A stretch of DNA of 64,000 bases from a virus: positions 1 to 64,000 of the IMG/VR virus record IMGVR_UViG_3300047546_001881; one strand, written 5' to 3'. Positions 6,151 to 40,489 of the stretch are shown here, piece by piece (within the stretch, counting starts at the first letter, position 1; each line of letters opens with the position of its first letter). The translations under genes were made by a program, and so were the position numbers. The notes below the pieces were generated by a model. It saw only the letters and a program-made list of their open reading frames with translations, was not told the DNA's origin and searched no databases.

Positions 6151-7149
6151 ATGTCTATTGAATATGCCGATATAGTTTTTGGCTTAGCCTGGGGCGACGA
6201 AGGCAAAGGCAAAGTAATATCTAAACTATCTAACAACTACGATATCGTAGCAAGGTGGGCTGGCGGTGCAAACGCCGGACATACCATTTACCTAAATGGT
6301 AAACGCTATAAGTCTCATATTATACCAAGTGGAGTCTTTACAGATAGTTTATCTTTTATTGGACCTGGATGCGTTGTAAATGAAAGCTCTTTCTTAGAAG
6401 AGATTTCGTATTTAAAAGAGAATGGATTTGACACTTCTCTTGTAAAGATATCTCCCAAAGCTTTCCTTGTACAAGAAGAGAACCTGATTCAAGATTCTCA
6501 AAACAATATTATTGGCACAACCAATAAAGGTATTGGCCCTACCTATACTGATAAAGTAGCAAGAAGAGGTAAGCGAGTCATTGATAGCGAAAAGCTATTC
6601 CCTTATATTGAAGATGTAACTCTTCGTGGAAGGATACTCTGTGAAGGCGCACAAGGCTTTTGGTTGGATCTTGATTGGGGTAACTATCCATACGTCACCT
6701 CAAGTACAACGCTGCCTTATGGGGCTTGCAGCCTTGGCATATCGCCCAAAAAGATAAGAGACATCATAGGCGTTGCTAAGCTTTATGATACTAGGGTTGG
6801 TCTTGATCCAGACTTCCCTGCTAGCTTAAACCAAGATCCGGAACTTTCTTTAATCCAAACTCTTGGAGAAGAGTTTGGAACTACCACTGGTAGAAAAAGA
6901 ACAGTAAACTGGTTAAACCTTGATAAGCTAATACAGGCAATCAATATATCAGGCGCTACAACTATTATCATTAACAAGTGCGATATTATTGAGAAAGCTA
7001 AGTTATTTAAGTTTTATTATTCAGGTCATCTTCAAGAGTATGACAATCTCTTCATGATGATTGATGCAATTAGAGATATACTTCTCTTTCGCTGTTTATC
7101 ACTGAAGAAAGAACTTATTTACTTCTCTTTCTCTAACTCTTCTATTTAG
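6151..7149 (+). CDS. purA: adenylosuccinate synthetase (short form)
   Basis: WGDEGKGK, GGANAGHT, GTTNKGIGP, EGAQG, YPYVTSS, EFGTTTGRKR, NKCD motifs. Confidence 0.95.
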   Translation: MSIEYADIVFGLAWGDEGKGKVISKLSNNYDIVARWAGGANAGHTIYLNGKRYKSHIIPSGVFTDSLSFIGPGCVVNESSFLEEISYLKENGFDTSLVKISPKAFLVQEENLIQDSQNNIIGTTNKGIGPTYTDKVARRGKRVIDSEKLFPYIEDVTLRGRILCEGAQGFWLDLDWGNYPYVTSSTTLPYGACSLGISPKKIRDIIGVAKLYDTRVGLDPDFPASLNQDPELSLIQTLGEEFGTTTGRKRTVNWLNLDKLIQAINISGATTIIINKCDIIEKAKLFKFYYSGHLQEYDNLFMMIDAIRDILLFRCLSLKKELIYFSFSNSSI

Positions 7150-13658: not shown

Positions 13659-15434
13659 ATGTCATCTCCCTCAATACCATTGATTATACTGAGCATTGAA
13701 TCTGGAATACCAATACCAGATACTCGCTTTTCTTTCGTTTTACCAAATGTAGATGCTAAGAAATTTAGTGTTCCTCGCACTACTATTAATGGTTCAAAGC
13801 AAAAGTATTTTGCTATAGCTATATCATTTGAAAATGAAGATAACTTATCTGTTATCCAAGATACAGAAAATAAGCTATTTTCAATAGAAGAGTATGGTGT
13901 TCTTTGCGTTTTAATAAGTAGCGAAGCTTCAGATTATTCTATTACATACAATTGTAAGGCTATTGAAACCTTTCAATTGAGTTCTTTTACTTTAAACAGC
14001 GAAGAGACTTACTCTGTTACTTACAGTAAGTTAAAAAATAAAGAAGTCTTCGGAGAAGAAGAACTTTATAACGACTTAATTACTCTTGTTACTCATATTA
14101 GAGATAAAGAAGATATCTTTTCGCAAGAGGCAGCCAATGCACTGGCTGCAACTAAAAATCTAACTACTATATGTAACGTTATTGTCCACGACTTAGATAT
14201 ACCTAAACAAACAAAGCTACTATATCTACATGCTCAATCTAATTTAGATCGAGTTACCATAGTAACTAAATGCTTGTTTGATATCTTAAGAGAACGAAAT
14301 AATATTTCAAATACTCTTCCTAAGAGAATGAATAGAAATATATTAGATTTCGTCACAAAAGACTCAGAAGACAATAACGAAGAAGATGATTCATCTACTA
14401 CTGATGATGAATCTCCTCCTACTTTAAGAGAAGTATCTTCTATCGCTGAAGAATTAATGCCTAAAGAATTTAAACAGGCATTAGCAGAATGTAGAAGTAG
14501 ACTTAAATCTTTGCCAAACCAAAGCATGGAATATCATGCTTTGAAAGAGTATCTTACTTGGTTAGAAAAAATTCCTTGGGGCAAAAAGTCTTACTCTACA
14601 CCTGATCTTAAAGCTTTAAAAGAGTATATGAACGAAAGTCATTTTGGATTAGATGACGTTAAACAAACAATTATGGAGCACATGGCTATTGAAAGTATCT
14701 GTGGTACTTCTAAAGGTCATGTACTCTGCTTTGTAGGACCTCCTGGAACTGGTAAGACTAGTATTGCTAACGCAATAGCTAAAGCTACCAATAGAAAAGC
14801 AATTAAGATTGCTTTAGGTGGTCTTGGAGATGAAGCAGAAATAAGAGGTCATCGCCGCACTTACGTTGCTTCTAGACCAGGCAGAGTAATTGCAGGAATT
14901 GTTTCCAAGGAAACAATGGATCCTATGTTTATCTTAGATGAAATAGATAAATTAGGTCACGGTAAATCTGATCCTTCAGCAGCTCTTCTAGAACTATTAG
15001 ATCCTGAACAAAACCATGAGTTCATAGACAGATACTTAGAAGTTCCAGTAGATCTTTCTAACGCTATGTTCGTCTGCACAGCAAACGATGAAGACAGTAT
15101 ACCTGCTGCTCTTAAAGACAGATTTGAAATCATCTACTTCAGAAACTATGAAGAAGATGAACGCAAAAAGATATTGAAAGATTACATAATACCAAATGCA
15201 ATATCTGACTACAATCTAGGTAATTTAAAAATATCTTTTGACGAGAGCTCGCTTTTGCTCGCTAGTTCCGTGGTTGGCTTAAGAGAAATAAAGACTACTG
15301 TTAAAAAGCTTTTAAGAAAAGCTGCTCTAGAAATACTTTCTGGAGCTGAATCAGTAGTAATTGATGAAAAAAGTATCAAAGACAATCTCAAAGTAAACAA
15401 AAATAAACACTTGCAAAGAAAAGTAGGTTTTTAA
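13659..15434 (+). CDS. Lon-type AAA+ ATPase lacking the C-terminal protease domain
   Basis: YLTWLEKIPW, HFGLDDVK, GPPGTGKT, AEIRGHRRTY, LDEIDK, ALLELLDPEQN; ends soon after the AAA lid. Confidence 0.9.
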   Translation: MSSPSIPLIILSIESGIPIPDTRFSFVLPNVDAKKFSVPRTTINGSKQKYFAIAISFENEDNLSVIQDTENKLFSIEEYGVLCVLISSEASDYSITYNCKAIETFQLSSFTLNSEETYSVTYSKLKNKEVFGEEELYNDLITLVTHIRDKEDIFSQEAANALAATKNLTTICNVIVHDLDIPKQTKLLYLHAQSNLDRVTIVTKCLFDILRERNNISNTLPKRMNRNILDFVTKDSEDNNEEDDSSTTDDESPPTLREVSSIAEELMPKEFKQALAECRSRLKSLPNQSMEYHALKEYLTWLEKIPWGKKSYSTPDLKALKEYMNESHFGLDDVKQTIMEHMAIESICGTSKGHVLCFVGPPGTGKTSIANAIAKATNRKAIKIALGGLGDEAEIRGHRRTYVASRPGRVIAGIVSKETMDPMFILDEIDKLGHGKSDPSAALLELLDPEQNHEFIDRYLEVPVDLSNAMFVCTANDEDSIPAALKDRFEIIYFRNYEEDERKKILKDYIIPNAISDYNLGNLKISFDESSLLLASSVVGLREIKTTVKKLLRKAALEILSGAESVVIDEKSIKDNLKVNKNKHLQRKVGF

Positions 15435-16575: not shown

Positions 16576-16617
16576 GCCTGGGTGGTATTTCACGATACCA
16601 CCCAGGCTTTGTTGTTT
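16576..16617 (+). terminator. intrinsic terminator
   Basis: GCCTGGGTGGTAT / ATACCACCCAGGC perfect 13-bp stem followed by T-rich tail. Confidence 0.7.
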
Positions 16618-16642: not shown

Positions 16643-16864
16643 ATGAAATACAAATTAGTATGTTATGACTCTGACAATTGTGGTTTCGTTGAATATTTAG
16701 AAGATATTCCGGACGATTTTATTTGTGAAAATTGTGCAGGCATATCAGCTTTATACAATATTCACTCAACTCCAATTCACACTAGATCTAAACCAGATCT
16801 AGATAAAGAACTAACCAAACTATTAGAGAGAGTAAATAAATACAATGGAAATCAATCTCAATAG
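16643..16864 (+). CDS. small Zn-ribbon protein
   Basis: CYDSDNCG ... CENCAG. Confidence 0.55.
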   Translation: MKYKLVCYDSDNCGFVEYLEDIPDDFICENCAGISALYNIHSTPIHTRSKPDLDKELTKLLERVNKYNGNQSQ

Positions 16865-19670
16865 TCTTCCTCATGCTATCCCTGCATCTGTAGCTAGAAG
16901 TGTCATTGATGCCGCTTACGACAGACTATCTCTAAGACAAAGATGGAATTATAACGCAGTTCATACTTACAAAACTGTAGATCTTCTTTATATTTATGCA
17001 ACATATGCTCTAAGAGCACATAGATATTACTTTGATCCTGAAGTCACTCAACTTCCTTCTTATGCTCATCTTTGTGAATTTGTTCAAGATTTTGAACAAG
17101 CAACAGAGAGAGGAGAAGATGTTGAGTCAAAGCTTTACTTGACTGTTGCAGAGGCAATTAAATCTCTTCTAGAAGCTTCAGTTTCTGGCACCGAAGAGTT
17201 CAAGCAAAACGAAGTTACAAAATTTATATTGCAACTTTACAGTGGTCTCAGGTCTAACAACTTCGCTTTAAATTCTTCTTATCTTTCGTACCATCAAAGA
17301 GCTTCTCATTTCTCAAATGCACGCTATGAGTTTGACAAGAGATATGCTCACTACGTTCAAGACAACTGCAATTATTATTTGCTGCCTCGGCCTGATAGTA
17401 TTGATGAATATATTATAGCTCCAAAGAAGAACTTTTATTCTGTTGATTTGGGAGAAAACAGAACTGCTCTTTCTCACTTCTCTTCTGAAGTAATTAAGAA
17501 CTTTTCTACAATTATTGATTTCTCTCAAATTAAAATTAATCTGACTCCTTCAAATGGATTAAGTCAATATCCAATTCCTACAGGTAATGACTTCGTTCAT
17601 ATATCTTTTGGTACTTCACCATCTATTTCAACATTGCCTTATTCTGCAGGATCAATTGTAGGCGAGAACTTTCTTTCAGAAAACTGCTTTAATTCTTTTG
17701 CCAACAAAAATGATCTTGTTAATGTATATACGTTAGAGAGTCCCTTTAGAGGGACTCCTTCTCTAAACAAAACTACAGTTAAAAAGAAGCTTCTAAATTC
17801 TGTAATTTATATTATGCCAATTGTTACTAACATTGGTATTTTTAACTTTGTTACTGGACAAGAAGAGTCTGTACCTTTCATTAGAATAAAGATCAAAGCA
17901 GATGAAAAGAAGATAATTAAATATAAATCTTCTTTAAACTGGATGATTGATTTTATCTGTAAGATTACGAATCAAAAAGGTATGGAGTTCTATGCTCCCG
18001 AAGAATATGAGAAACTTCTAAAGAATAGATTTGGAACTGCTGGTAAGTATTATAAAACTCTTGTTGATTTCCTATCTAGTTTAAAGATTGGTTTAGCCGA
18101 ATACAAAGATAATAGCTTCAATACTATAATAGATGCATTGGCATCTGACTCATTCAAATATCATGAGATAGCTTCTTCTGCTGTTGATATTCCAAATTTG
18201 TCAGAAGCCATCAAGAATGAAAAGATGCTCGAGAGACTAACTGGTCAGTTGAATGAATTGAGCAATTCTTTCCTTTCAAAAAATAATGAAATAGATAAGC
18301 TCAATGCTTCTCTTTCATCTTTTGAAGATGAGATTGCTTATCATCTTCGAAGATTAGAAAATCTTAAGAATGACAAAGAAACTCTTATTTTGAAATCTCC
18401 AATACTCAAAAAAGAGCTTTCTGATATTGAAAAGAGTAGAAACGCTTTATCTGAAGTTATAGAACCCTTAAATGCAAAAGTTAAAGAGTTCAATACGCAG
18501 AAGCATGAAATGCTTCTTGCGTCTATAGATAGCGCCGATACGAAGTTCTTAGATAATCTATCTTCTAGTAACATGAAACTAAATAATGTTTACTATACGA
18601 TTCCAGCAATTCCATATTTCAAAGGAATGACTAGAGACTTCACAAAGTATTTTAAGCTTCCAATTGAAAAGCTACCTTCTGGTCTTATAGGTTGTAGCGG
18701 GTATAGAGAAGACTATATGATCTCTATACAAAGCTTACCTAAGATTGCGTATTGCGCTCAAAACAAGTTGCCTCTATCTATGGAAGATGTTCTGACTGAA
18801 GAAGGTATAGTAAAACTCAATCTCTTCCGTCCAGAAGAAATAAGTTTTGCTTTAACTCCTAGTTTGATAGCAGTAGACTTTTCTACTCTTAAGCCTTCTA
18901 TTATCAAGATTGACGGGACGCAAAAGTCCGTTGTTGGTGGACCTTATAACGTAATCTTATTTGCTGTTATTAACTTTGACTGGCACAGGCGTGTAACAAG
19001 TTCTACTAACTATATGTACATATCAGCTAAAGAAAGTAGTAGCGTTGTTGGAATAGATAAAGACTACAATGATACTACTTACCTAAAGATTAAAATTCAT
19101 CCTCATACTGGTGGCATTTATGCACCTAAGAGTGAAAACTTCTTTAGTTGTCTTAAAGGCAAATATGACTATTGTTGTCTAGGTGAAGGACTTCCTGGCA
19201 TCTACAAAGGCTTTGAATTAGCAAACGTAAGAATGGCTTTGTTCTCTGCTAAAGCTTGGATTGAATCAACTAATAGCGGAGATACTTGGGGTAGAACATA
19301 TACTATGTTCCCCGCTCTAAGTGAAGTTAATCTTAATGGAATCGAAGTAGAGGAAACGGAAGCTCCAGTAGAAACTAATGAAGTTTCTACTGAAGAAGAA
19401 ATTACTGATACTGAAATGCTAATGATCCTTCAAGGTGTAATTGATAATATCAATACTACACTTTCAACAACTCCAGTAGAACAGCCAGTTGTATTTATAG
19501 ATTTAACACAACCTGAATTGCAACAAACTGTAGAAAACATAGTTGAAGCAATTAACGAATCTCTTAGTCTGCCACCTATACCTCCAATAGTAGTAGCAGA
19601 ACCAACTCCTGTTGTTAGTAATACCGGTTATTCTACTTATTCCAGTGTAGTTAATTCTCTCATCGCATAA
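16845..19670 (+). CDS. large coiled-coil protein with C-terminal prokaryotic E2 (UBC)-like domain
   Basis: central heptad region; GPY.V ... IHPH ... CCLGEG ... WIESTNSGDTWG pattern; adjacent to JAB, ThiF and Ubl genes. Confidence 0.65.
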   Translation: MEINLNSLPHAIPASVARSVIDAAYDRLSLRQRWNYNAVHTYKTVDLLYIYATYALRAHRYYFDPEVTQLPSYAHLCEFVQDFEQATERGEDVESKLYLTVAEAIKSLLEASVSGTEEFKQNEVTKFILQLYSGLRSNNFALNSSYLSYHQRASHFSNARYEFDKRYAHYVQDNCNYYLLPRPDSIDEYIIAPKKNFYSVDLGENRTALSHFSSEVIKNFSTIIDFSQIKINLTPSNGLSQYPIPTGNDFVHISFGTSPSISTLPYSAGSIVGENFLSENCFNSFANKNDLVNVYTLESPFRGTPSLNKTTVKKKLLNSVIYIMPIVTNIGIFNFVTGQEESVPFIRIKIKADEKKIIKYKSSLNWMIDFICKITNQKGMEFYAPEEYEKLLKNRFGTAGKYYKTLVDFLSSLKIGLAEYKDNSFNTIIDALASDSFKYHEIASSAVDIPNLSEAIKNEKMLERLTGQLNELSNSFLSKNNEIDKLNASLSSFEDEIAYHLRRLENLKNDKETLILKSPILKKELSDIEKSRNALSEVIEPLNAKVKEFNTQKHEMLLASIDSADTKFLDNLSSSNMKLNNVYYTIPAIPYFKGMTRDFTKYFKLPIEKLPSGLIGCSGYREDYMISIQSLPKIAYCAQNKLPLSMEDVLTEEGIVKLNLFRPEEISFALTPSLIAVDFSTLKPSIIKIDGTQKSVVGGPYNVILFAVINFDWHRRVTSSTNYMYISAKESSSVVGIDKDYNDTTYLKIKIHPHTGGIYAPKSENFFSCLKGKYDYCCLGEGLPGIYKGFELANVRMALFSAKAWIESTNSGDTWGRTYTMFPALSEVNLNGIEVEETEAPVETNEVSTEEEITDTEMLMILQGVIDNINTTLSTTPVEQPVVFIDLTQPELQQTVENIVEAINESLSLPPIPPIVVAEPTPVVSNTGYSTYSSVVNSLIA

Positions 19671-19760
19671 TAATAAATGCTTGGAGGAGTAAAATCCTCC
19701 AAGCATTTGTCTCTAGCCTTAGTATTTGTATCTTCAAACATTTTACACTATAGGCTAAAA

Positions 19761-20972
19761 ATGAATCCCCTAGGTAGTTTTAAAATTCTAAACAACAATA
19801 TTAAGATTCAGATATCTCATAAAGATCTATTTGCAATTCAACATCTAGTTAGTATAGCTCCTCAAGAAGCTCAATGGTTCCATAGACTAGAGACAATTAA
19901 GACTAAAAGCGAAACTATTTTTCGCATTTACGATATCTACATTCCAGAACAGTATTGCTCAGTCACAGAAGTTGAGTCTACTAGTTCTATGATGATTAAC
20001 TTTTACAGAGAACTGATTTCAAATAACTCTGTAGAAGCTACAAATGCGATTCTATCTTCACTGAATGTATGGTGTCATAGTCACCATACCATGTCTCCAA
20101 GTCCAAGCGGGCAGGACAACAATCAGTTTCTACAGCTAATTAAGTATGCAGTAGACTCTAACAATGTTGTTCCTCAAATTATGCTAATCTTTAATAAGAG
20201 CAATCAGTATTACTCACGAATCTTTGATCCTCAAAATGGACTAGTATACGAAAATGTTCCTATATGTGTAGAGACTGAAGATCTGAGTTGGATTGATAAA
20301 GCTGCTGCTGCAAAGTTTAAGAAGCCAGCTCCAAAGAATATCTTTTCTCAAGATACTACTTCAGGAAAATTGAATTTCCCGCAAAATGCTTCTATTGAAA
20401 GAACATTCATTGGAATTGAAAAGCAAGTTCCTGATCTGTCTTTTAAAGAGACTTCTAGGTCTTCTAAAAAAAAAGATCACAGCAAGCAAATTACAAGCCC
20501 TTCAGCGTTAACGTCTAAAGCAATTAATAAGCTATTTCTAGACTATTGGAAAGTCCATTCTTCAGATGAAGAAAACATCGCTATTCTAATGAAGAAAATC
20601 TTCTCTACAAATTCTTCTTGCCAGAAAGAAGCTGGTGAACTTGAAGATATTATTATTAAGAGAGTTGGCAGTGATAATAAATATTGCGCTCTTCTTAACT
20701 TGATTCAAGTTCAAGATGACGATGAAGATTTGAGAGAATGGGAGAAGTTTCAGTTTGATTACGATCAAGCCGAAGTTCTTATGAATTCAGAAAGATTCTA
20801 TGAAATTCTTACCGCTGGTTGTATCGACGACATCCTCCTTACTCATACAATCTTTCTAGTCAATTGCTTGTATGGCTCTATGTATACAACAGAAGAAGAA
20901 AGAGAAAAGCTAATTGATTGGTGGCTCACAGAAACTGGAACTTGTAACTATAAGTTCGGTGAGCATTTCTAA
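19761..20972 (+). CDS. JAB/MPN+ metalloisopeptidase (deubiquitinase-like)
   Basis: PQEAQW (catalytic E), PEQ, WCHSHHTMSPSPSGQD (HxH..S..D). Confidence 0.85.
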   Translation: MNPLGSFKILNNNIKIQISHKDLFAIQHLVSIAPQEAQWFHRLETIKTKSETIFRIYDIYIPEQYCSVTEVESTSSMMINFYRELISNNSVEATNAILSSLNVWCHSHHTMSPSPSGQDNNQFLQLIKYAVDSNNVVPQIMLIFNKSNQYYSRIFDPQNGLVYENVPICVETEDLSWIDKAAAAKFKKPAPKNIFSQDTTSGKLNFPQNASIERTFIGIEKQVPDLSFKETSRSSKKKDHSKQITSPSALTSKAINKLFLDYWKVHSSDEENIAILMKKIFSTNSSCQKEAGELEDIIIKRVGSDNKYCALLNLIQVQDDDEDLREWEKFQFDYDQAEVLMNSERFYEILTAGCIDDILLTHTIFLVNCLYGSMYTTEEEREKLIDWWLTETGTCNYKFGEHF

Positions 20973-20983
20973 TCTTTAACCAT

Positions 20984-21013
20984 AGCGCCTTTCGGCGCTT
21001 TGGTTGTTTGGTT
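20984..21013. promoter_or_regulatory. recurrent hairpin motif, copy 4
   Basis: AGCGCC TTTC GGCGCT TTGGTTGTTTGG upstream of the ThiF gene. Confidence 0.6.
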
Positions 21014-21040
21014 CTTTGTTAGTAAACAATAGAGGTCAAC

Positions 21041-21730
21041 ATGACTGAAGTATCTTTCTTGAGGCATGCAGGATTCTTCAGTCCTGAAGATGCTGAAACT
21101 CTAAATATTATTGGTGTTGGTGCCACAGGCTCAAACATCGGTTTGATTGCTGCAAAAATGGGGTTCCACTCATTCAAAGTCTGGGATGCAGACATAGTTG
21201 AGAACCATAATTTGCCAAATCAAATTTACGATGTTGAGCATGTTGGGATGCGAAAAGTTGATGCATTTAAAGCAGTGCTTCAACGATTCAATCCCAATAT
21301 TAAAGTAGAAACTCACCCATACTTCTTTGAAGCATCTCATAAATCTCTACTAGATGATGGTCCTCTTGTATTGACTGTAGATACAATGAGTGCTCGTAAA
21401 GACATTCATTCTGCATTCCATATGAATTATCTAGTAAACAAAGTTTATGAGACCCGACTTGGCTTTGATTATGGCGAGCTAAACATCATTGATAATATGA
21501 ATATCGTCCAATCAAGCAAGTGGGTAGACTGCTTAAGAAGTGACAGTGAGCTTCCAGAAGGCCCCTGTAATCTTCGAATTTGTACTACGCTAGTAGGTCT
21601 TGTAGCTTCTTATACCGTTCATACAATCTGCGCTTTTCTTTCTACAAAGCGCTCCCAAGTTGATTGTTCAGGCATAAAACCAAAAACAATTTTCAACTTT
21701 GGTCCTCAAATTTACACTCATTCACTATAG
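21041..21730 (+). CDS. ThiF/E1-like adenylating enzyme
   Basis: IIGVGATGS, DADIVENHNLPNQ, KVDA, TVDTMSAR; candidate catalytic Cys in EGPCN. Confidence 0.9.
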   Translation: MTEVSFLRHAGFFSPEDAETLNIIGVGATGSNIGLIAAKMGFHSFKVWDADIVENHNLPNQIYDVEHVGMRKVDAFKAVLQRFNPNIKVETHPYFFEASHKSLLDDGPLVLTVDTMSARKDIHSAFHMNYLVNKVYETRLGFDYGELNIIDNMNIVQSSKWVDCLRSDSELPEGPCNLRICTTLVGLVASYTVHTICAFLSTKRSQVDCSGIKPKTIFNFGPQIYTHSL

Positions 21731-21740
21731 GAAAACTATC

Positions 21741-21956
21741 ATGCGTGATATCGTACTCGTTCGCGTTCCAGGTCCAGGCGCTTCAACCGTTCAGGTTACC
21801 GACACTATGACTGTTGCTGAGTTCGCAGCTCGCGAAGCTCTTAACGGTCGTAACATTGTTCTCGACGGTACTGGTCTTGAGCCACAGGCTTGGTCCAGCA
21901 CCACTCTTGCTGGTGTTCGCGAACTATTCGCAACTGGCAGCGTTAAGGGTAACTGA
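21741..21956 (+). CDS. ubiquitin-like (beta-grasp) protein
   Basis: 71 aa; TMTVAE, IVLDG, LAG..ELF pattern; C-terminal VKGN; directly downstream of ThiF. Confidence 0.75.
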   Translation: MRDIVLVRVPGPGASTVQVTDTMTVAEFAAREALNGRNIVLDGTGLEPQAWSSTTLAGVRELFATGSVKGN

Positions 21957-21983
21957 ACCCTTTAGCTCTTTTACATTGCTAAC

Positions 21984-22024
21984 AATGCTCGTCCTACTTA
22001 CCAAAGTAGGGCGAGCATTTTTTT
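21984..22024 (+). terminator. intrinsic terminator closing the Ubl cluster
   Basis: AATGCTCGTCCTACTT / AAGTAGGGCGAGCATT plus T-run. Confidence 0.7.
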
Positions 22025-35798: not shown

Positions 35799-37067
35799 AT
35801 GACAACGAACCCCTTTGTCCATTTACATCTCCATACTGAATACTCACTCTTAGATGGTATAAATAGAATAAATTACTTGCCTAAATATATTAAAAGTATT
35901 GGTCAAGAAGCAGTTGCCATGACAGATCATGGCAACGTTTCTGGTAGCTACTCTTTCTACAAGCAATGCAAGAAAGATGGCGTCAAACCAATCATAGGAA
36001 TGGAATCTTACTATACTGTACAAGATAGATCTGTTAAAGAAGTAGATGACTTAGGTGAGTCTTATTATCATCTTGTTTTGATTGCTCTTAATAACACTGG
36101 TCTTAAAAATCTATTTAAGCTTTCTTCTTTAGCTTACACTGAAGGTATGTATAGAAAGCCAAGAATAGATGATGCTCTGCTTGGCGACTTATCTGAAGGT
36201 CTCTGTGCGACTTCCTCTTGCCTAGGAAGTCGCGCTTCACAACTTATCCTAAATGGTAAAGCGTCAGAAGCTGAGAAGCTAATTCATCATCATGCAGCTT
36301 TATTTAATAAGAAGTTCTTAATTGAACTGCAGCTACATGAGATGGAAGATCAAAAGAAAGTTAATCAAGTACTATTAGATATAGCTAACAGAAATAACTA
36401 TCCAATCATTCTAACGAATGATTGTCACTACACTCATCCAGTAGATAAAGCTTTACATGAGATTGCTTTGTGTATGCAAACCAAAAGTACTCTTTCTGAT
36501 GAAAAGAGATTTACATTTGGAGATATAGACGTACACGTAGCAAGCCATGACTGGATGTGGCAAAGAGCTCAAGAAGCAGGAATACCTTACGATGCAATAA
36601 GTAACACTGCTGCTTTAGCAAATATGGTTAATAGTAAAGATTATTTCTCTGATAGAAAGAATAGATATCCTCAATTCAAAGACCTATATGAAGGCATGAA
36701 TAGTTCTGAACATTTAGAAATATTAGCTAAACAAAAGCTATATGAAAGGTTTGGTACTATGCCTCCCAAAGAGTACAGAGAAAGACTAGATTATGAGTTA
36801 AAAGTAATTAAGAAGATAGGCTTCTCTGATTATATGCTGATTGTTTGGGAATTTCTAAAAGGTGCAAGAGACTCTGGTGTAGAAGTTGGTCCAGGAAGAG
36901 GTAGTAGTGGCGGAAGCTTAGTAGCTTACGCCTTAGAAATAACTAACTTTGATCCAATTAAATACGGACTAGTGTTTGAGAGATTCCTGAATATCGGAAG
37001 AGCTGCTCAACCACTAATCTTTAATGATGAAATGTATGCTCAAGTAGAAGCTAATCTTAAAGACTAA
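35799..37067 (+). CDS. dnaE: DNA polymerase III alpha, N-terminal part (PHP + palm start)
   Basis: HLHLHTEYSLLDG, TDHG, TNDCHY, GPGRGS, FERFLN then stop. Confidence 0.92.
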   Translation: MTTNPFVHLHLHTEYSLLDGINRINYLPKYIKSIGQEAVAMTDHGNVSGSYSFYKQCKKDGVKPIIGMESYYTVQDRSVKEVDDLGESYYHLVLIALNNTGLKNLFKLSSLAYTEGMYRKPRIDDALLGDLSEGLCATSSCLGSRASQLILNGKASEAEKLIHHHAALFNKKFLIELQLHEMEDQKKVNQVLLDIANRNNYPIILTNDCHYTHPVDKALHEIALCMQTKSTLSDEKRFTFGDIDVHVASHDWMWQRAQEAGIPYDAISNTAALANMVNSKDYFSDRKNRYPQFKDLYEGMNSSEHLEILAKQKLYERFGTMPPKEYRERLDYELKVIKKIGFSDYMLIVWEFLKGARDSGVEVGPGRGSSGGSLVAYALEITNFDPIKYGLVFERFLNIGRAAQPLIFNDEMYAQVEANLKD

Positions 37068-38053
37068 GGTATTGGTTTAAAACCCAATACTAGATAAAAG
37101 CCTGAACCATTCATTCCTACGTTATTAGATGCAAGTGTTATCTTCCAGGTATTATTTGTAAGATACTGCTTGGAAGATAATACTGCACTAAGAGGAATAT
37201 TGGTAACGGTGTTAGCAGTTAAACTGTTCATATCAAAAGCTACAGGTAAGCTACTTACTCCAGCAGCTACATTTTGAATATCTAGCTGTAAGCTACCAAC
37301 AGTATTTACTACATCACAGTATATACCTGCAGAGACAAGTTCTGTTTTGAAAGGATACCAACCTATATATTCTATTGTAATTCCTGGTGCTTCTGGTAAT
37401 TCTATTCTTTCAACATTAACTGTCCAATTTTTAGTATCAGCCATTGTTGATACTAAAGTATCTAATGACTCTACAGATGGTAAATTAGATGCATTGCCTA
37501 TAAAGATGTTACCTTTATTAAGATTAGGTACATCATTAGTACGACCGGCGCCACCAATTTTGATAGAACCATTACTTGCATGAACCCTTTGTACTTTAGC
37601 TAAGTTTTGTACAAGAGAAGATTCACCAGCTGGCTTACTTGTCTGTAAGCCAGATGCACCTACATATAAACTATTATTTAAAGCCCATCCAGGAGTACTT
37701 GTATCAATATTATGTAGTGTTCCAAAAGTAACTACTTCTACATTGCTACCTAAACTAGCAGAGTTTCCGGCTACACCAAATGCAGGCATCTTAGCTGCGT
37801 TAGTACAATCAGCCTTACTTACAACAGGTTTACTTCCACTTACACCTGAAATGTAAACTGGATCTCCAAGTACAAGTGCTTCACCTGCATTAGCATTAAA
37901 GACAATTCTTTGTGCTTCTTCAGAAGCAATTACTGTACCGAAACTAAAGTTACCTGCTCCATCTGTAAGCAGAACTTCATCTGCAGCACCATCTGTTATT
38001 CCTAAATCAGTTAAAGTTCTAGGTATAAACTTACCATTCTCAATAATACTCAT
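37064..38053 (-). CDS. putative virion fibre/decoration protein inserted between the dnaE halves
   Basis: VLLTDGAGNFSF, AGEALVLGDPVYISG, LYVGASG, RTNDVPNL motifs of phage fibre/cement-like proteins; ATG at 38053 with AAGGTG RBS. Confidence 0.65.
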   Translation of the reverse strand: MSIIENGKFIPRTLTDLGITDGAADEVLLTDGAGNFSFGTVIASEEAQRIVFNANAGEALVLGDPVYISGVSGSKPVVSKADCTNAAKMPAFGVAGNSASLGSNVEVVTFGTLHNIDTSTPGWALNNSLYVGASGLQTSKPAGESSLVQNLAKVQRVHASNGSIKIGGAGRTNDVPNLNKGNIFIGNASNLPSVESLDTLVSTMADTKNWTVNVERIELPEAPGITIEYIGWYPFKTELVSAGIYCDVVNTVGSLQLDIQNVAAGVSSLPVAFDMNSLTANTVTNIPLSAVLSSKQYLTNNTWKITLASNNVGMNGSGFYLVLGFKPIP

Positions 38054-38074
38054 AACAACACCTTGGAATTTAAT

Positions 38075-40489
38075 ATGGAAGATATTAAAGCTTTCTATAT
38101 ACCTGAAAGATACAAACAAGTAGATGTAGACTTTCTTGAATTTGAAGAAGATATGATATCTTCTAAAGATAAAAGCATTATACTATCATTACTTAACAAG
38201 AGTTCAACTGGATTATCTAAAATGGATAATCCATATAATAGTATAATTTTATATCTTACTGGTCTTACAGATCAGTTCAATTTTGTTCAAGGAAGATCTG
38301 ATACTATCGGAGGCAGCCCTCCAGATGTTGATATAGATTTCGATGCATTAGAAAGAGAGAAAGCAATAGAGTGGGTCGTGCAAAAATGGGGACGAACTCA
38401 AGTTGCTAACATTATCACTCATGGTACTTTTAAGCCTAAGTCTTTAGTTAAGTCCTACTACAGAGTAACTGAAGGCTCTTCAAAAGATATGGGGGATCTT
38501 CTTAAAATGATCCCCCCAGCTAAGTTTGGTAAAGAATCTACAATTGAAGAGATTGTAACCAAAGAGCCAGAGTTTAAAAACTTCGAACCTTTTTATTCTT
38601 CTGCTACTAAGCTAGAAGATATGATTTCGAACTTTGGTATACATGCAGCAGGTATTGTCATCTCCGACTTCCCCATTTACGATGTAGTTCCTGTATGGAA
38701 GAATAGTAAAGCTGATTTCATCACTCAGTTTGACAAGAAGGAAGTAGAAGATTTAGGTCTTATTAAGTTTGACTTCTTATCTATTGATACCTTGTCGATT
38801 ATCAAAGAGTGCATAAGACTTATAAAAGAGAAAAGAAACCTTACAATTAATCCATGGCAGCTACCTGATGGAGATCCCAAAGCATATGCCGCTATGAATA
38901 GCGGCTACTTGACTGGATTGTTTCAAGTAGAAACTTCAGGTAAAGCAAAAGATCTAATACAGAGAATCAAGCCTCAAAGCATTCCTCATATTAGTGATAT
39001 CAGTGCACTGAATAGACCTGGACCAGCTCAAGCTGGTCTTGATGAACAATACATTACTAATAAGAACAATAACTGTCCACCTGAAGAACTTCCGAAAGTT
39101 GTTGCTGACTTACTTAAAGATACTTATTGGACTCTTGTTTATCAAGAACAAGTTATGGAGATCTTTTCTAAGTTAGCTGGCTTTACAATGAAAGAGTCAG
39201 ATGATATTCGAAGAGCAATGGGCAAGAAAGACAAAGATGTTCTATCTGCTTATGAAGAACAATTCATTCAAGGCTCTATTAAATTATCTGGACTAAAACA
39301 AGATTATGCTAAAACTCTTTGGGAAGAACTACTAGGTTTCGCAGACTATTGTTTTAATAAGAGTCATAGCGTAGCTTACTCAATAATCACTTATGCAACA
39401 GCATATTTGAAAGCGAACTATTCTACTGAATTCTTTTGTGCGCTAATGACTGTTAGATCCCAATCTTTACAACCTAAAGATTGGGCTTGCAAAGCTCCAG
39501 AATACATTAATGAAGCAAAGTACTTTGACGTAGAAATAAATCCACCATCAGTTAATGGCTCTGACTTAGAGTTTTCAATGAAAGATGGAGAGATTTATTT
39601 TGGTCTTAATGCAATTAGAGATGTAGGTGGTACTGCCGCCAAATCTATTGTAAAGACAAGAGGCCGGACTCCTTATAAAGATATCTTCGATTTCTTATTT
39701 AGAGTTAACGGAAACAAAGTAACAATTAAAACTTTTGTTAGCTTAATTAAATCTGGCGCTTTTGACAAAATGGGTTACATTAGAAGTGAACTCGTACTAA
39801 AGTCTCAATTACTTTATGATTACGTTAGAGATATACAAGAATATAATCTTAGATTAACTGAAATAAAAGAACGAGATGCTTATAACGAACAAGCAAATGC
39901 ATTGATTGAAAAAAGAGATAATCTAAGAAAAGAAGTAAAAGCAATAGAAAAGGAAATCAAGAAGTCTGGTACTACAGTTGCTTTGTCTGCAAGGTTTGAA
40001 GAAGCATCTTCTCAATTGACAGAAATAGAAGAGATGCAAATTAAAAGACTTCCAGCTCTTAAGATAAAAGAAGAACCAGTTAAACCAGAACTAGTTAGAA
40101 CTAAAAGTGTTCCTTTAGATTTGTCACAAATAATGGAGCAAGCTCATTATATTGGCTGTTATATTGGATCACATCCAGCAGCTATGATAGGCTCCGGTTA
40201 TGACAAGATAGAAGATTGTTATATTGGTCAAAGGCCAAGTCTTTGCGGTATTGTAAATAGCATTAAAGTAATCTCTACCAAGTCAGGACAGAAGATGGCC
40301 TTCTTGGAAATAGACGATTCTACTGCAACTGCTGAACTTACAATATTTGCAAGTCTCTGGACTAAACTATCTGCCTTGAATATTGTTCCTGGATGTTTGA
40401 TTTCTGATATTGAGTGCAAGGTGGAAAACGAAGACCCAATAAAACTTGTAGCTTTCAATTTAAAATTAGTTAGGAGCCCTAATGAGTAA
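38075..40489 (+). CDS. dnaE: DNA polymerase III alpha, C-terminal part (catalytic palm, fingers, OB)
   Basis: PDVDIDF, HAAG, GLIKFDFL, LVYQEQ, RRAMGKK, YCFNKSH, OB fold with GQKMAF. Confidence 0.92.
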   Translation: MEDIKAFYIPERYKQVDVDFLEFEEDMISSKDKSIILSLLNKSSTGLSKMDNPYNSIILYLTGLTDQFNFVQGRSDTIGGSPPDVDIDFDALEREKAIEWVVQKWGRTQVANIITHGTFKPKSLVKSYYRVTEGSSKDMGDLLKMIPPAKFGKESTIEEIVTKEPEFKNFEPFYSSATKLEDMISNFGIHAAGIVISDFPIYDVVPVWKNSKADFITQFDKKEVEDLGLIKFDFLSIDTLSIIKECIRLIKEKRNLTINPWQLPDGDPKAYAAMNSGYLTGLFQVETSGKAKDLIQRIKPQSIPHISDISALNRPGPAQAGLDEQYITNKNNNCPPEELPKVVADLLKDTYWTLVYQEQVMEIFSKLAGFTMKESDDIRRAMGKKDKDVLSAYEEQFIQGSIKLSGLKQDYAKTLWEELLGFADYCFNKSHSVAYSIITYATAYLKANYSTEFFCALMTVRSQSLQPKDWACKAPEYINEAKYFDVEINPPSVNGSDLEFSMKDGEIYFGLNAIRDVGGTAAKSIVKTRGRTPYKDIFDFLFRVNGNKVTIKTFVSLIKSGAFDKMGYIRSELVLKSQLLYDYVRDIQEYNLRLTEIKERDAYNEQANALIEKRDNLRKEVKAIEKEIKKSGTTVALSARFEEASSQLTEIEEMQIKRLPALKIKEEPVKPELVRTKSVPLDLSQIMEQAHYIGCYIGSHPAAMIGSGYDKIEDCYIGQRPSLCGIVNSIKVISTKSGQKMAFLEIDDSTATAELTIFASLWTKLSALNIVPGCLISDIECKVENEDPIKLVAFNLKLVRSPNE

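What the first reader, a model, noticed from the sequence alone, without database searches (positions are those of the whole stretch)
16643..22024. Phage-encoded ubiquitin-like conjugation cluster: E2-like, JAB, E1 (ThiF), Ubl
Seen: between two terminators lie a Zn-ribbon gene, a 941-aa protein with an HPH...CCLGEG...N..DTWG segment, a JAB metallopeptidase (E...HSH..SPSGQD), a ThiF adenylase and a 71-aa beta-grasp-like protein. Established: E1+E2+JAB+Ubl gene sets define prokaryotic ubiquitin-like conjugation systems, including antiphage Bil-type systems. ThiF/ThiS sulfur-relay operons lack an E2 and sit beside thiamine or molybdopterin genes, none of which are present here. Inference: the virus carries its own protein-tagging machinery, possibly to modify host proteins, counter host Ubl defence or interfere with competing phages.
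Basis: partly seen in the sequence, partly recalled or inferred. Interest (0 to 1): 0.86.

Follow-up and report, generated by a model that had tools for sequence, protein, structure and literature searches.

The report
Phage ubiquitin-like tagging gene cluster
An uncultured freshwater phage carries a tight gene set for a small ubiquitin-like protein, the enzyme that activates it, a trimming protease and a giant protein with a possible carrier-enzyme domain; such kits have been studied only as bacterial defences, and what this one tags is unknown.

Summary
Between two strong terminator-like hairpins (16576-16607 and 21984-22019) lie a Zn-ribbon gene, a 941-aa gene, a JAB gene, a ThiF-type E1 gene and a 71-aa gene.

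- **E1:** solid (Pfam ThiF, E 1.2e-18).
- **JAB:** the E...HxHx7SxxD residues are invariant, and 13 of 15 orthologues hit Pfam Prok-JAB.
- **Small protein:** a beta-grasp. The AF2 model has pLDDT 91, and nearly all of the top 50 Foldseek hits are ubiquitin or ubiquitin-like/ThiS folds.

New here:
- The order big, JAB, E1, Ubl is kept in all 23 distinct related contigs with enough DNA.
- Relatives encode the tag as 2-4 head-to-tail copies, some fused to a 95-aa domain. Every unit in these carries VKG-N (288 of 288).
- River metatranscriptome assemblies hold the cluster.

Most likely this is a phage Ubl processing, activation and conjugation module.

This scan had already reported the same gene family on other phage genomes. 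I found no paper describing it.

The parts
16576..16607 (+). Terminator-like hairpin upstream of the cluster (14-bp stem, then a T run)
16643..16864 (+). 73-aa Zn-ribbon protein (C-x5-C ... C-x2-C). Its end overlaps the start of the next gene by 20 nt. BLASTP detected a homologue just upstream of the big gene in about half of the related loci.
16845..19670 (+). 941-aa 'big' protein. It has a variable N-terminal part, a coiled coil around aa 450-580, a conserved C-terminal domain and an acidic, Pro-rich tail.
18861..19334 (+). Conserved HPH-Cys domain (aa 673-830), the candidate E2-like domain. Invariant residues: GGP 698-700, H752-P753-H754, C778-L-G780, W805, D813-x-W815-G816, F822.
19675..19708 (.). 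14-bp inverted repeat in the spacer between the big gene and the JAB gene. Its loop varies between river samples.
19761..20972 (+). JAB/MPN+ metallopeptidase. The first ~190 aa are conserved, with invariant E36, H106-S-H108, S116 and D119 (403-aa numbering). The C-terminal half is variable. The ORF could also start at 19677.
20984..20999 (+). Short GC hairpin with a TTTC loop, followed by TTGGTTGTTTGG, in the JAB-E1 spacer
21041..21730 (+). Minimal 229-aa ThiF-family E1 adenylating enzyme. It has GxGxxG, Asp and Lys motifs, an invariant NLPNQ in place of NLxRQ, and one invariant Cys (EGPCN). It has no CxxC pairs, no UFD and no rhodanese domain.
21741..21956 (+). 71-aa ubiquitin-like beta-grasp protein ending ATGSVKGN. 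It has a single Lys (K69) and GC 0.53 against 0.30-0.39 in neighbouring genes.
21984..22019 (+). Terminator-like hairpin after the Ubl gene (16-bp stem, then a T run). RNA-library contigs from three runs stop at 21947-21979.

Best explanation
This is a phage-encoded module that processes, activates and probably conjugates a ubiquitin-like protein.

Proposed mechanism:
1. The 71-aa beta-grasp protein is made with its Gly masked (…VKG-N). In relatives it is made as 2-4 head-to-tail units or fused to another domain.
2. The JAB metalloprotease cuts at the VKG|N junction and releases units with a free C-terminal Gly.
3. The minimal ThiF-type E1 adenylates that Gly. It may also hold the tag on its single invariant Cys.
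4. The tag then passes to the invariant Cys778 of a highly derived, UBC-like domain in the 941-aa protein.
5. The long variable N-terminal part of that protein would choose the target, so it would act as an E2/E3 hybrid. The tag would end up on Lys residues of unknown phage or host proteins during the replication phase.

Shown here: the domain identities of E1, JAB and Ubl, the strict gene linkage, the tandem precursor genes in relatives, and the presence of the cluster in RNA libraries.

Inferred: the cleavage site, both thioesters, conjugation itself, and any target.
For: - **E1:** Pfam ThiF at E 1.2e-18. PADLOC Cap2-type E1-E2 models match down to 3.8e-13. The nearest solved relatives are ThiF-type proteins, PaaA and UBA5.
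- **JAB:** catalytic E, HxH, S and D are invariant in 15 orthologues. Thirteen of 15 hit Prok-JAB, best E 3.1e-6.
- **Ubl:** AF2 pLDDT 91 with beta-beta-alpha-beta-beta-beta order. Nearly all of the Foldseek top 50 are ubiquitin, ISG15 or ThiS at probability 0.99-1.00, and TM over the list is 0.51-0.69.
- **Linkage:** the order big, JAB, E1, Ubl holds in all 23 distinct loci that reach far enough. No locus shows another neighbour.
- **Precursors:** of 120 longer relatives, 81 have 2 units, 29 have 3 and 10 have 4. Thirty-one carry a C-terminal tail of 60 aa or more. VKG is followed by N at 288 of 288 junctions, and the residues after N vary. This calls for a processing protease and fits stoichiometric use of the tag.
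- **Candidate E2:** H752, P753, H754, C778 and D813 are invariant. The model places a beta-meander, then HPH, then Cys at a helix start, then helices. The best PDB neighbours in two searches are almost all E2, UEV or RWD folds. Bacterial Prok-E2_A also carries HPH upstream of its Cys.
- **No alternative E2 or sulfur partner:** no canonical E2, rhodanese or PP-loop enzyme was found in the complete 161-kb relative.
- **RNA libraries:** four river metatranscriptome assemblies hold the cluster at 99% identity or more, with very uneven depth along it.
Against: - Foldseek against the PDB gives nothing at E 0.001 or better.
- There is no Pfam, PADLOC, NCBIfam or PDB sequence hit for the domain.
- hhalign against Prok-E2_A and Prok-E2_B gives below 1%, while the control pair gives 71%.
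- HPH and Cys are 24 residues apart, against about 8-10 in known E2s.
- I could not inspect model coordinates, so I do not know whether C778 overlays the E2 Cys.
- The E1 lacks the usual Arg of NLxRQ.
- The Asn after Gly is invariant even at internal junctions. A mere cap would not need that.
- JAB + E1 + capped Ubl trios also serve sulfur transfer (CysO/Mec+, QbsCDE; from my own knowledge).
- Contigs from an RNA library do not prove transcription.
Confidence: 0.5

Rival explanations
1. Conjugation happens without an E2. As with archaeal SAMP/UbaA or Thermus TtuB/TtuC, the E1 alone activates the Ubl and hands it to targets. The 941-aa protein would then be the main substrate, an adaptor or scaffold, or a different Cys- or metal-dependent enzyme (for example a Ubl-specific peptidase or transferase, or a His/His/Cys/Asp metal site).
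For: - No canonical E2 occurs anywhere in the complete relative.
- The invariant H, H, C and D could form a metal site.
- The Cys sits at a helix start, as in thiol peptidases.
- Ubl + JAB + a thiol peptidase (NlpC/P60) is a known phage pairing in lambda-type tail genes (PMC1779556).
Against: - No peptidase, LRAT or NlpC/P60 fold appears among the 50 best structural neighbours, whereas E2-type folds dominate.
- The strict four-gene linkage and the H...C order fit an E2.
Confidence: 0.2
2. It is a sulfur-carrier relay. After JAB trimming, the Ubl is adenylated and converted to a thiocarboxylate. That thiocarboxylate donates sulfur for a phage-specific nucleotide, tRNA or cofactor modification, and the HPH-Cys domain acts in sulfur transfer.
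For: - The Ubl sequence pattern is ThiS/SAMP2-like. Weak Pfam and PDB hits go to SAMP2, and JGI names relatives 'sulfur carrier protein ThiS'.
- The best NCBIfam hit for the E1 is ThiF PRK08644 at 1.5e-19.
- Capped carriers trimmed by JAB are known (QbsE/QbsD, CysO/Mec+; from my own knowledge).
- The cluster sits among nucleotide-metabolism genes, including a PurZ-like gene.
Against: - The E1 scores far below every ThiF or MoeB equivalog cut-off (70.5 against 159 bits).
- The E1 has no CxxC pairs and no rhodanese domain.
- No rhodanese or PP-loop sulfur-insertion enzyme was found in a complete relative.
- The tail is KG(N), not GG.
- Tag genes multiplied up to four units and fused to other domains suggest a consumed modifier rather than a recycled carrier.
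Confidence: 0.15
3. Asn, not Gly, is the working C-terminus. JAB would cut after VKGN, and the E1 would act on a C-terminal Asn as MccB does on the microcin C precursor. That would give a succinimide or nucleotidylated end rather than a classic Gly thioester.
For: - Asn follows VKG at 288 of 288 junctions, including internal ones where no cap is needed. What follows Asn is variable.
- Most single-unit genes stop exactly at Asn.
- Repeat units align Met1-to-Asn71 in register.
- The E1 has an unusual NLPNQ motif.
Against: - The most divergent orthologue ends VKGA (L041).
- The E1 lacks MccB's N-terminal peptide-clamp domain; it is only 229 aa and consists of the ThiF domain alone.
- Known JAB enzymes of Ubl systems cut after Gly (from my own knowledge).
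- An invariant P1' residue would explain the Asn equally well.
Confidence: 0.07

Closest known systems
Bil (BilABCD) bacterial anti-phage ubiquitin-like conjugation operons (PMC10557695)
   Same: Both have four parts: a beta-grasp tag, a ThiF-type E1, a JAB protease and, possibly here, a Cys-bearing E2. The tag's C-terminus is masked and would need trimming.
   Different: This cluster is encoded by lytic-type phages among replication genes, not by bacteria as a defence. The E2 candidate is a domain inside a 650-1150-aa protein with no detectable sequence link to known E2 families. The tag ends KG-N. Relatives have tandem tag genes. Membership in the Bil protein families could not be tested, because no Bil models are in the libraries.
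Predicted bacterial E1/E2/JAB/Ubl operons of Iyer, Burroughs and Aravind 2006 (PMC1779556), including PRTRC cassettes of plasmids and ICEs
   Same: The same combination of domains occurs on mobile elements. Some members have two or three tandem Ubl domains and an accessory Zn-finger protein.
   Different: The E1 scores 23.8 bits against the PRTRC ThiF cut-off of 144.75. The JAB, Ubl and big proteins hit no PRTRC model. That paper reports only a Ubl + JAB pair in phage tail genes, not an E1-containing set.
Type II CBASS Cap2 (E2-E1 fusion) with Cap3 (JAB)
   Same: The E1 matches Cap2-type PADLOC models down to 3.8e-13. A JAB partner is present.
   Different: There is no cGAS-like enzyme. E1 and the E2 candidate are separate proteins. 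Only the E1 part of Cap2 is matched, and hhalign against Prok-E2_B (Cap2-type E2) is negative.
Eukaryotic polyubiquitin and ubiquitin-fusion genes (UBI4, UBB/UBC, UBA52 type)
   Same: Relatives encode 2-4 head-to-tail tag units, a short cap after the last unit, or a fusion of tag units to an unrelated 95-aa domain.
   Different: The window's own phage has a single unit with a one-residue cap. Every unit keeps an Asn after the Gly. Cleavage has not been shown. The processing enzyme would be a JAB metalloprotease rather than a Cys DUB.
ThiS/ThiF, MoaD/MoeB, QbsE/QbsC/QbsD and CysO/MoeZ/Mec+ sulfur-carrier systems
   Same: They share a beta-grasp carrier, a ThiF-type adenylating enzyme and, in some, a JAB that trims a capped C-terminus.
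   Different: No GG end, no Zn-binding CxxC pairs and no rhodanese. Neither of the two sulfur-partner families searched (rhodanese, PP-loop) was found in a complete relative, and scores lie below every equivalog cut-off.
crAss001 gp78-gp77-gp76 and Flavobacterium phage Fpv3 gp54-gp53-gp52
   Same: The layout is the same in a replication-gene region: a protein with HSH...C, then a JAB (HSHx7SGTD), then a ThiF-type E1 that shares the loss of the NLxRQ Arg and the single Cys. My E1 profile matches at 1e-23 to 1e-25.
   Different: No free Ubl gene is evident there. The upstream proteins show no significant match to the HPH-Cys domain. The records annotate the E1 as a 'thiamine biosynthesis protein'.

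Membership tests
ThiF/E1-like adenylating enzymes (Pfam PF00899) | Score above the Pfam gathering cut-off over the Rossmann-type adenylation domain | tested here: met
   67.6 bits against a cut-off of 28.1, E 1.2e-18, residues 23-204. Found again in the genome search.
ThiF/E1-like adenylating enzymes (Pfam PF00899) | Nucleotide-binding GxGxxG, N-terminal Arg, NLxRQ Arg, and catalytic Asp after strand 5 | tested here: inconclusive
   GVGATGS, FLRH, RKV and VDTMSARK are conserved, but NLxRQ is invariably NLPNQ, so the Arg is replaced. Activity cannot be judged from sequence.
JAB/MPN+ metallopeptidases (Pfam Prok-JAB PF14464) | Catalytic E ... HxHx7SxxD motif | tested here: met
   E36, H106, H108, S116 and D119 are invariant in 15 orthologues.
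JAB/MPN+ metallopeptidases (Pfam Prok-JAB PF14464) | Score above the Pfam gathering cut-off | tested here: not met
   The window's protein scores 19-20.5 bits against a cut-off of 25. Thirteen of 15 orthologues match at E of 1 or less, best 3.1e-6. Three PADLOC JAB models match at 3e-3 to 6e-3. A profile search of PDB sequences found no JAB.
Ubiquitin-like beta-grasp modifiers and carriers | Beta-grasp fold | tested here: met
   AF2 pLDDT 91.1. Nearly all of the Foldseek top 50 are ubiquitin, ISG15, ThiS or other ubiquitin-like folds at probability 0.99-1.00, with TM 0.51-0.69 over the list; E is only about 2e-3.
Ubiquitin-like beta-grasp modifiers and carriers | Flexible C-terminal tail ending in Gly (usually Gly-Gly) that the E1 can adenylate | tested here: inconclusive
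   The tail is disordered in the model and ends VKG-N. Gly70 is invariant but masked by Asn71. Processing has not been shown.
E2 / UBC-fold conjugating enzymes (UQ_con, Prok-E2_A to E) | UBC fold: four-strand meander followed by helices | tested here: inconclusive
E2 / UBC-fold conjugating enzymes (UQ_con, Prok-E2_A to E) | Sequence-profile match to an E2 family | tested here: not met
   No Pfam hit at E of 10 or less in 14 members. hhalign gives 0.3% against Prok-E2_A and 0.2% against Prok-E2_B, with the A-versus-B control at 71%. Genome searches with PF14457, PF14461 and PF00179 found nothing in five related phage records; the PF00179 search rang in no control genome, so that one is uninformative.
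E2 / UBC-fold conjugating enzymes (UQ_con, Prok-E2_A to E) | Conserved His (HPN/HPH) a few residues upstream of an invariant catalytic Cys | tested here: inconclusive
   HPH and Cys778 are invariant and in the right order. Prok-E2_A examples also have HPH. The spacing is 24 residues instead of about 8-10.
E2 / UBC-fold conjugating enzymes (UQ_con, Prok-E2_A to E) | Forms a thioester with the Ubl | not testable with these tools
   Needs biochemistry.
PRTRC cassette (NCBIfam TIGR03734-03742) | Components reach the equivalog cut-offs | tested here: not met
   The E1 scores 23.8 bits against 144.75 for TIGR03736. The other four proteins hit no PRTRC model at E of 0.1 or less.
ThiS/ThiF or MoaD/MoeB sulfur relay | E1 reaches a ThiF or MoeB equivalog cut-off and has two CxxC Zn motifs | tested here: not met
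   The best hit is PRK08644 at 70.5 bits against a cut-off of 159. Only one Cys is conserved.
ThiS/ThiF or MoaD/MoeB sulfur relay | Sulfur-transfer or sulfur-insertion partners in the same genome | tested here: not met
   No Rhodanese (PF00581) or PP-loop (PF01171) match in five related phage records, including a complete 161-kb genome. ThiG, MoaE and cysteine desulfurase were not searched, and host enzymes could substitute.
Bil (BilABCD) systems | Bacterial operon that protects against phage by tagging virion proteins | tested here: not met
   The cluster lies on phage contigs with phage replication genes. Its function cannot be tested here. No Bil sequence models were available.

The most novel reading that the evidence does not exclude
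Lytic aquatic phages run their own complete ubiquitin-like conjugation pathway. The carrier step would be done by a structurally new class of E2 (HPH-x24-Cys) built into a ~900-aa combined E2/E3 scaffold. The tag would be supplied from polyubiquitin-style and fusion-type precursor genes cut by a JAB protease. That would make it a viral counterpart of the eukaryotic ubiquitin gene layout, used to tag host or phage proteins during replication.
Probability: 0.4. Interest if true: 0.85.

Novelty: new variant of a known kind. Interest (0 to 1): 0.74.

Why it matters
Ubiquitin-like conjugation in the prokaryotic world has been characterised as a bacterial defence against phages (Bil, type II CBASS, Bub).

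A whole clade of about 150-kb aquatic phages keeps its own tag, E1, JAB and a candidate carrier enzyme, with polyubiquitin-like tag genes. This suggests that viruses of bacteria also use protein tagging on their own account.

If the HPH-Cys domain is confirmed, it would be a new E2 class, or a new kind of Ubl-handling enzyme, that current databases cannot see.

The homologous E1 + JAB pair in cultured crAss-like and Flavobacterium phages is annotated as 'thiamine biosynthesis'. Those phages give a laboratory handle on the question.

Tried and rejected
- **megablast and tblastn of the cluster, the big protein and JAB against 50,697 phage records:** no match. No cultured close relative was found.
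- **Single-protein locus search with the big protein:** nothing. The wide alignment A1 was too diverse for a locus search.
- **Profile of the big family against PDB sequences:** only coiled-coil hits.
- **Foldseek against the PDB for the HPH-Cys domain:** nothing at E 0.001 or better. Atg3 and Atg10 appear only at probability below 0.1.
- **ESM Atlas, twice:** no usable feature hit, and its own model of the protein is poor.
- **BFVD:** only uncharacterised phage proteins.
- **JAB profile against PDB sequences:** no JAB hit.
- **Ubl profile against PDB and Pfam:** only sub-threshold SAMP2, UBX-like and lambda tail protein I hits.
- **hhalign of the domain against Prok-E2_A and Prok-E2_B alignments built from 17 bacterial loci:** negative.
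- **Pfam on the 95-aa tail domain, and on the N-terminal parts of nine long family members:** nothing.
- **crAss001 gp78 and Fpv3 gp54 against the domain profile:** not significant.
- **Literature searches for phage-encoded E1/JAB/Ubl sets, jumbo phages, crAss + ThiF, and PDB code 9EGB:** no relevant paper.
- **Model coordinates:** not available in the script box, so I could not check whether C778 overlays the E2 Cys or whether H752, H754, C778 and D813 cluster together.
- **RNA-library contigs:** they cannot rank genes or prove transcription.


Full report
**What is there.** The window is 64 kb of a 75.7-kb IMG/VR virus record, estimated to be about 50% complete. Around the finding it carries phage replication and nucleotide genes. 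These include ribonucleotide reductase, a split family-A-like DNA polymerase, a primase-helicase, PhoH and a PurZ-like gene.

- Zn-ribbon protein, 16643-16864
- 941-aa protein, 16845-19670
- JAB, 19677 or, more likely, 19761-20972
- E1, 21041-21730
- 71-aa protein, 21741-21956

Strong terminator-like hairpins flank the set at 16576-16607 and 21984-22019. The region holds 14 such sites against 5.0 +/- 2.0 in shuffles. Smaller hairpins lie in the big-JAB and JAB-E1 spacers.

**E1.** The 229-aa protein is a ThiF-family adenylating enzyme (Pfam E 1.2e-18, 67.6 bits against a 28.1 cut-off).
- It scores below every ThiF, MoeB or PRTRC equivalog cut-off.
- It matches the E1 half of CBASS Cap2 models in PADLOC, down to 3.8e-13.
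- Its nearest solved relatives are two ThiF-type proteins (9egb, 9egc), PaaA and UBA5.
- Across eight orthologues the GxGxxG, N-terminal Arg, Lys and Asp motifs are kept.
- The Arg of NLxRQ is always Asn (NLPNQ).
- Only one Cys is invariant (EGPCN), so there are no Zn-binding CxxC pairs. There is no rhodanese or UFD domain.

**JAB.** The window's protein is below the Pfam cut-off (19-20.5 bits against 25). The catalytic E...HxHx7SxxD residues are nevertheless invariant in 15 orthologues. Thirteen of those 15 hit Prok-JAB, with a best E of 3.1e-6. Three PADLOC JAB models also match weakly. Only the first ~190 residues are conserved.

**Ubl.** No family model matches the 71-aa protein. An AF2 model built from 15 homologous units has pLDDT 91, beta-beta-alpha-beta-beta-beta order and a floppy tail. 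Nearly all of the top 50 Foldseek PDB matches are ubiquitin, ISG15, ThiS or archaeal Ubl, at probability 0.99-1.00. TM over the list is 0.51-0.69, and E is only about 2e-3. The protein has one Lys (K69) and ends ATGSVKGN.

**The 941-aa protein.** An exhaustive HMMER search found 188 cluster representatives, and nearly all of the 150 listed are 600-1150 aa long. They share essentially one region, aa 673-830. Conservation there is striking: F679, P684, GGP 698-700, H752-P753-H754, C778-L-G780, W805, D813-x-W815-G816 and F822.

AF2 on aa 653-860 with 112 sequences gives pLDDT 86. The model shows a beta-meander, then HPH, a small hairpin and helix, then Cys778 at a helix start, then three helices.

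Evidence on the E2 question:
- Foldseek against the PDB finds nothing.
- VIA-align against 48,161 chains, and against Foldseek's top 1000, puts E2 enzymes first (UbcH7, Ube2S, Ube2N, UBC12, Rad6, Pex4). Atg3, Atg10, UEV, RWD and a BubCD chain appear further down.
- I built Prok-E2_A and Prok-E2_B alignments from bacterial genomes. hhalign links those two families at 71% probability, but links the phage domain to either at below 1%.
- Prok-E2_A members do carry an HPH about 10 residues before their Cys. Here the gap is 24 residues.
- No canonical E2 family matched in five related phage records, one of them a complete 161-kb genome. The UQ_con search rang in no control genome, so that one is uninformative.

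The E2 reading is therefore plausible but unproven. I put it at about one in two.

**Linkage.** Locus searches gave 9 viral, 2 MAG and 28 metagenome loci. In all 23 distinct loci with enough downstream DNA, the order is big, JAB, E1, Ubl. Truncated loci show the same order as far as they reach. The wider block is also kept across the clade: Lon-like ATPase, p273, Zn-ribbon (detected in about half of the loci), the four genes, a P-loop protein, and PhoH. Only the tight four- or five-gene core can be argued to be functional rather than inherited order.

**Tag precursors.** Relatives carry extra tag genes of several kinds:
- Two or three units head to tail (L009, L010, L040).
- Tandem units fused to a ~95-aa domain (L008, L016, L031).
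- Single units with short basic tails.

In L009 and L010 the 95-aa domain is a separate gene beside the tag genes.

A search for longer proteins returned 120 listed clusters: 81 with two units, 29 with three and 10 with four. Thirty-one have a tail of 60 aa or more. VKG is followed by Asn at 288 of 288 junctions, and what comes after Asn varies. One divergent orthologue ends VKGA.

This layout requires a processing protease, and the adjacent JAB is the obvious candidate. It also suggests that the tag is consumed rather than recycled. The invariant Asn at internal junctions is unexplained. It may be the protease's P1' residue or, less likely, the true C-terminus, which would point to MccB-like chemistry.

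**Sulfur-carrier rival.** No rhodanese or PP-loop enzyme was found in five related records, one of them complete. The tail is not GG, and the E1 lacks CxxC pairs. Host enzymes could still serve, and JAB-trimmed sulfur carriers exist, so I keep this rival at about 0.15.

**Occurrence and expression.** Near-identical DNA is held by runs from 13 studies of fresh, river, other aquatic and marine water. Six river metatranscriptome runs are among them. In four of those assemblies, contigs match at 99% or better and depth is very uneven. Depth is near zero over the Lon-like gene, 4-7 over the big gene and JAB, and 10-41 for the contig spanning E1 + Ubl. In three runs that contig stops at 21947-21979, just before the terminator. 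This is a weak hint of transcription, not proof.

**Relation to known systems.** The closest functional models are the bacterial Bil operons and the E1/E2/JAB/Ubl operons predicted by Iyer et al. 2006. That paper reports only a Ubl + JAB pair in phage tail genes.

Cultured crAss001 (gp78-gp77-gp76) and Flavobacterium phage Fpv3 (gp54-gp53-gp52) have an analogous trio. It consists of an HSH...C protein, a JAB, and an E1 that my profile matches at 1e-23 to 1e-25. The records annotate that E1 as a thiamine biosynthesis protein.

I found no paper describing a phage E1/JAB/Ubl set.

**Earlier work in this scan.** Earlier follow-ups had already reported this same family on other phage genomes, and other phage clades with canonical E2s and poly-Ubl genes. 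My results agree with them and were reached independently before I read them.

**Verdict.** I class it as a new variant of a known kind.

Noticed in passing
L008:12364-12648, L016:12463-12753, L010:10817-11110, L009:11450-11746: A ~95-aa domain (ESFINVAYGD...GWAAC, no Pfam hit) is fused behind 2-4 tag units in some relatives. In others it is a separate gene right beside the tag genes, much like a ubiquitin-fusion cargo. It is absent from the window's phage.
   Followed up: partly
L013 (crAss001 gp78-gp75) and L065 (Fpv3 gp54-gp51): Cultured crAss-like and Fipvunavirus phages have a trio in their replication region: an HSH...C protein, a JAB (HSHx7SGTD) and a ThiF-type E1. The E1 is homologous to the one here but is annotated 'thiamine biosynthesis protein'. 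No free Ubl gene is evident.
   Followed up: partly
window 13659-15434: A Lon-like AAA+ ATPase with a weak Lon N-domain hit and no protease domain. It is conserved two to three genes upstream of the cluster in nearly all related loci. A functional tie to the tagging genes is possible but cannot be separated from inherited gene order.
   Followed up: partly
window 6151-7149: This ORF matches phrog_1211 (E 2.7e-70), the PurZ-type adenylosuccinate-synthetase-like family of 2-aminoadenine (Z-base) phages.
   Followed up: no
window 35799-37067, 37064-38119 (- strand), 38063-40489: The DNA polymerase is split into two ORFs that match the N- and C-terminal parts of one PHROG (phrog_405). A 351-aa ORF on the opposite strand lies between them.
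   Followed up: no
window 20871-21979: In four river metatranscriptome assemblies, the contig covering E1 + Ubl has several times the depth of its neighbours. In three of the four runs it ends just before the terminator at 21984-22019.
   Followed up: partly
window 19689-19694: Three river RNA-library assemblies share four base differences inside the loop of the big-JAB intergenic hairpin, while the stem is kept.
   Followed up: no
window 21741-21956: The Ubl gene has GC 0.53 (GC3 0.40), against 0.30-0.39 (GC3 0.20-0.30) in the neighbouring genes.
   Followed up: partly
L015 and L016: Two contigs carrying the cluster are binned into bacterial MAGs (a Gammaproteobacteria bacterium and a Bacteriovoracaceae bacterium, 158 kb). 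They have the same phage gene order, so they are probably phage contigs mis-binned rather than host loci.
   Followed up: no
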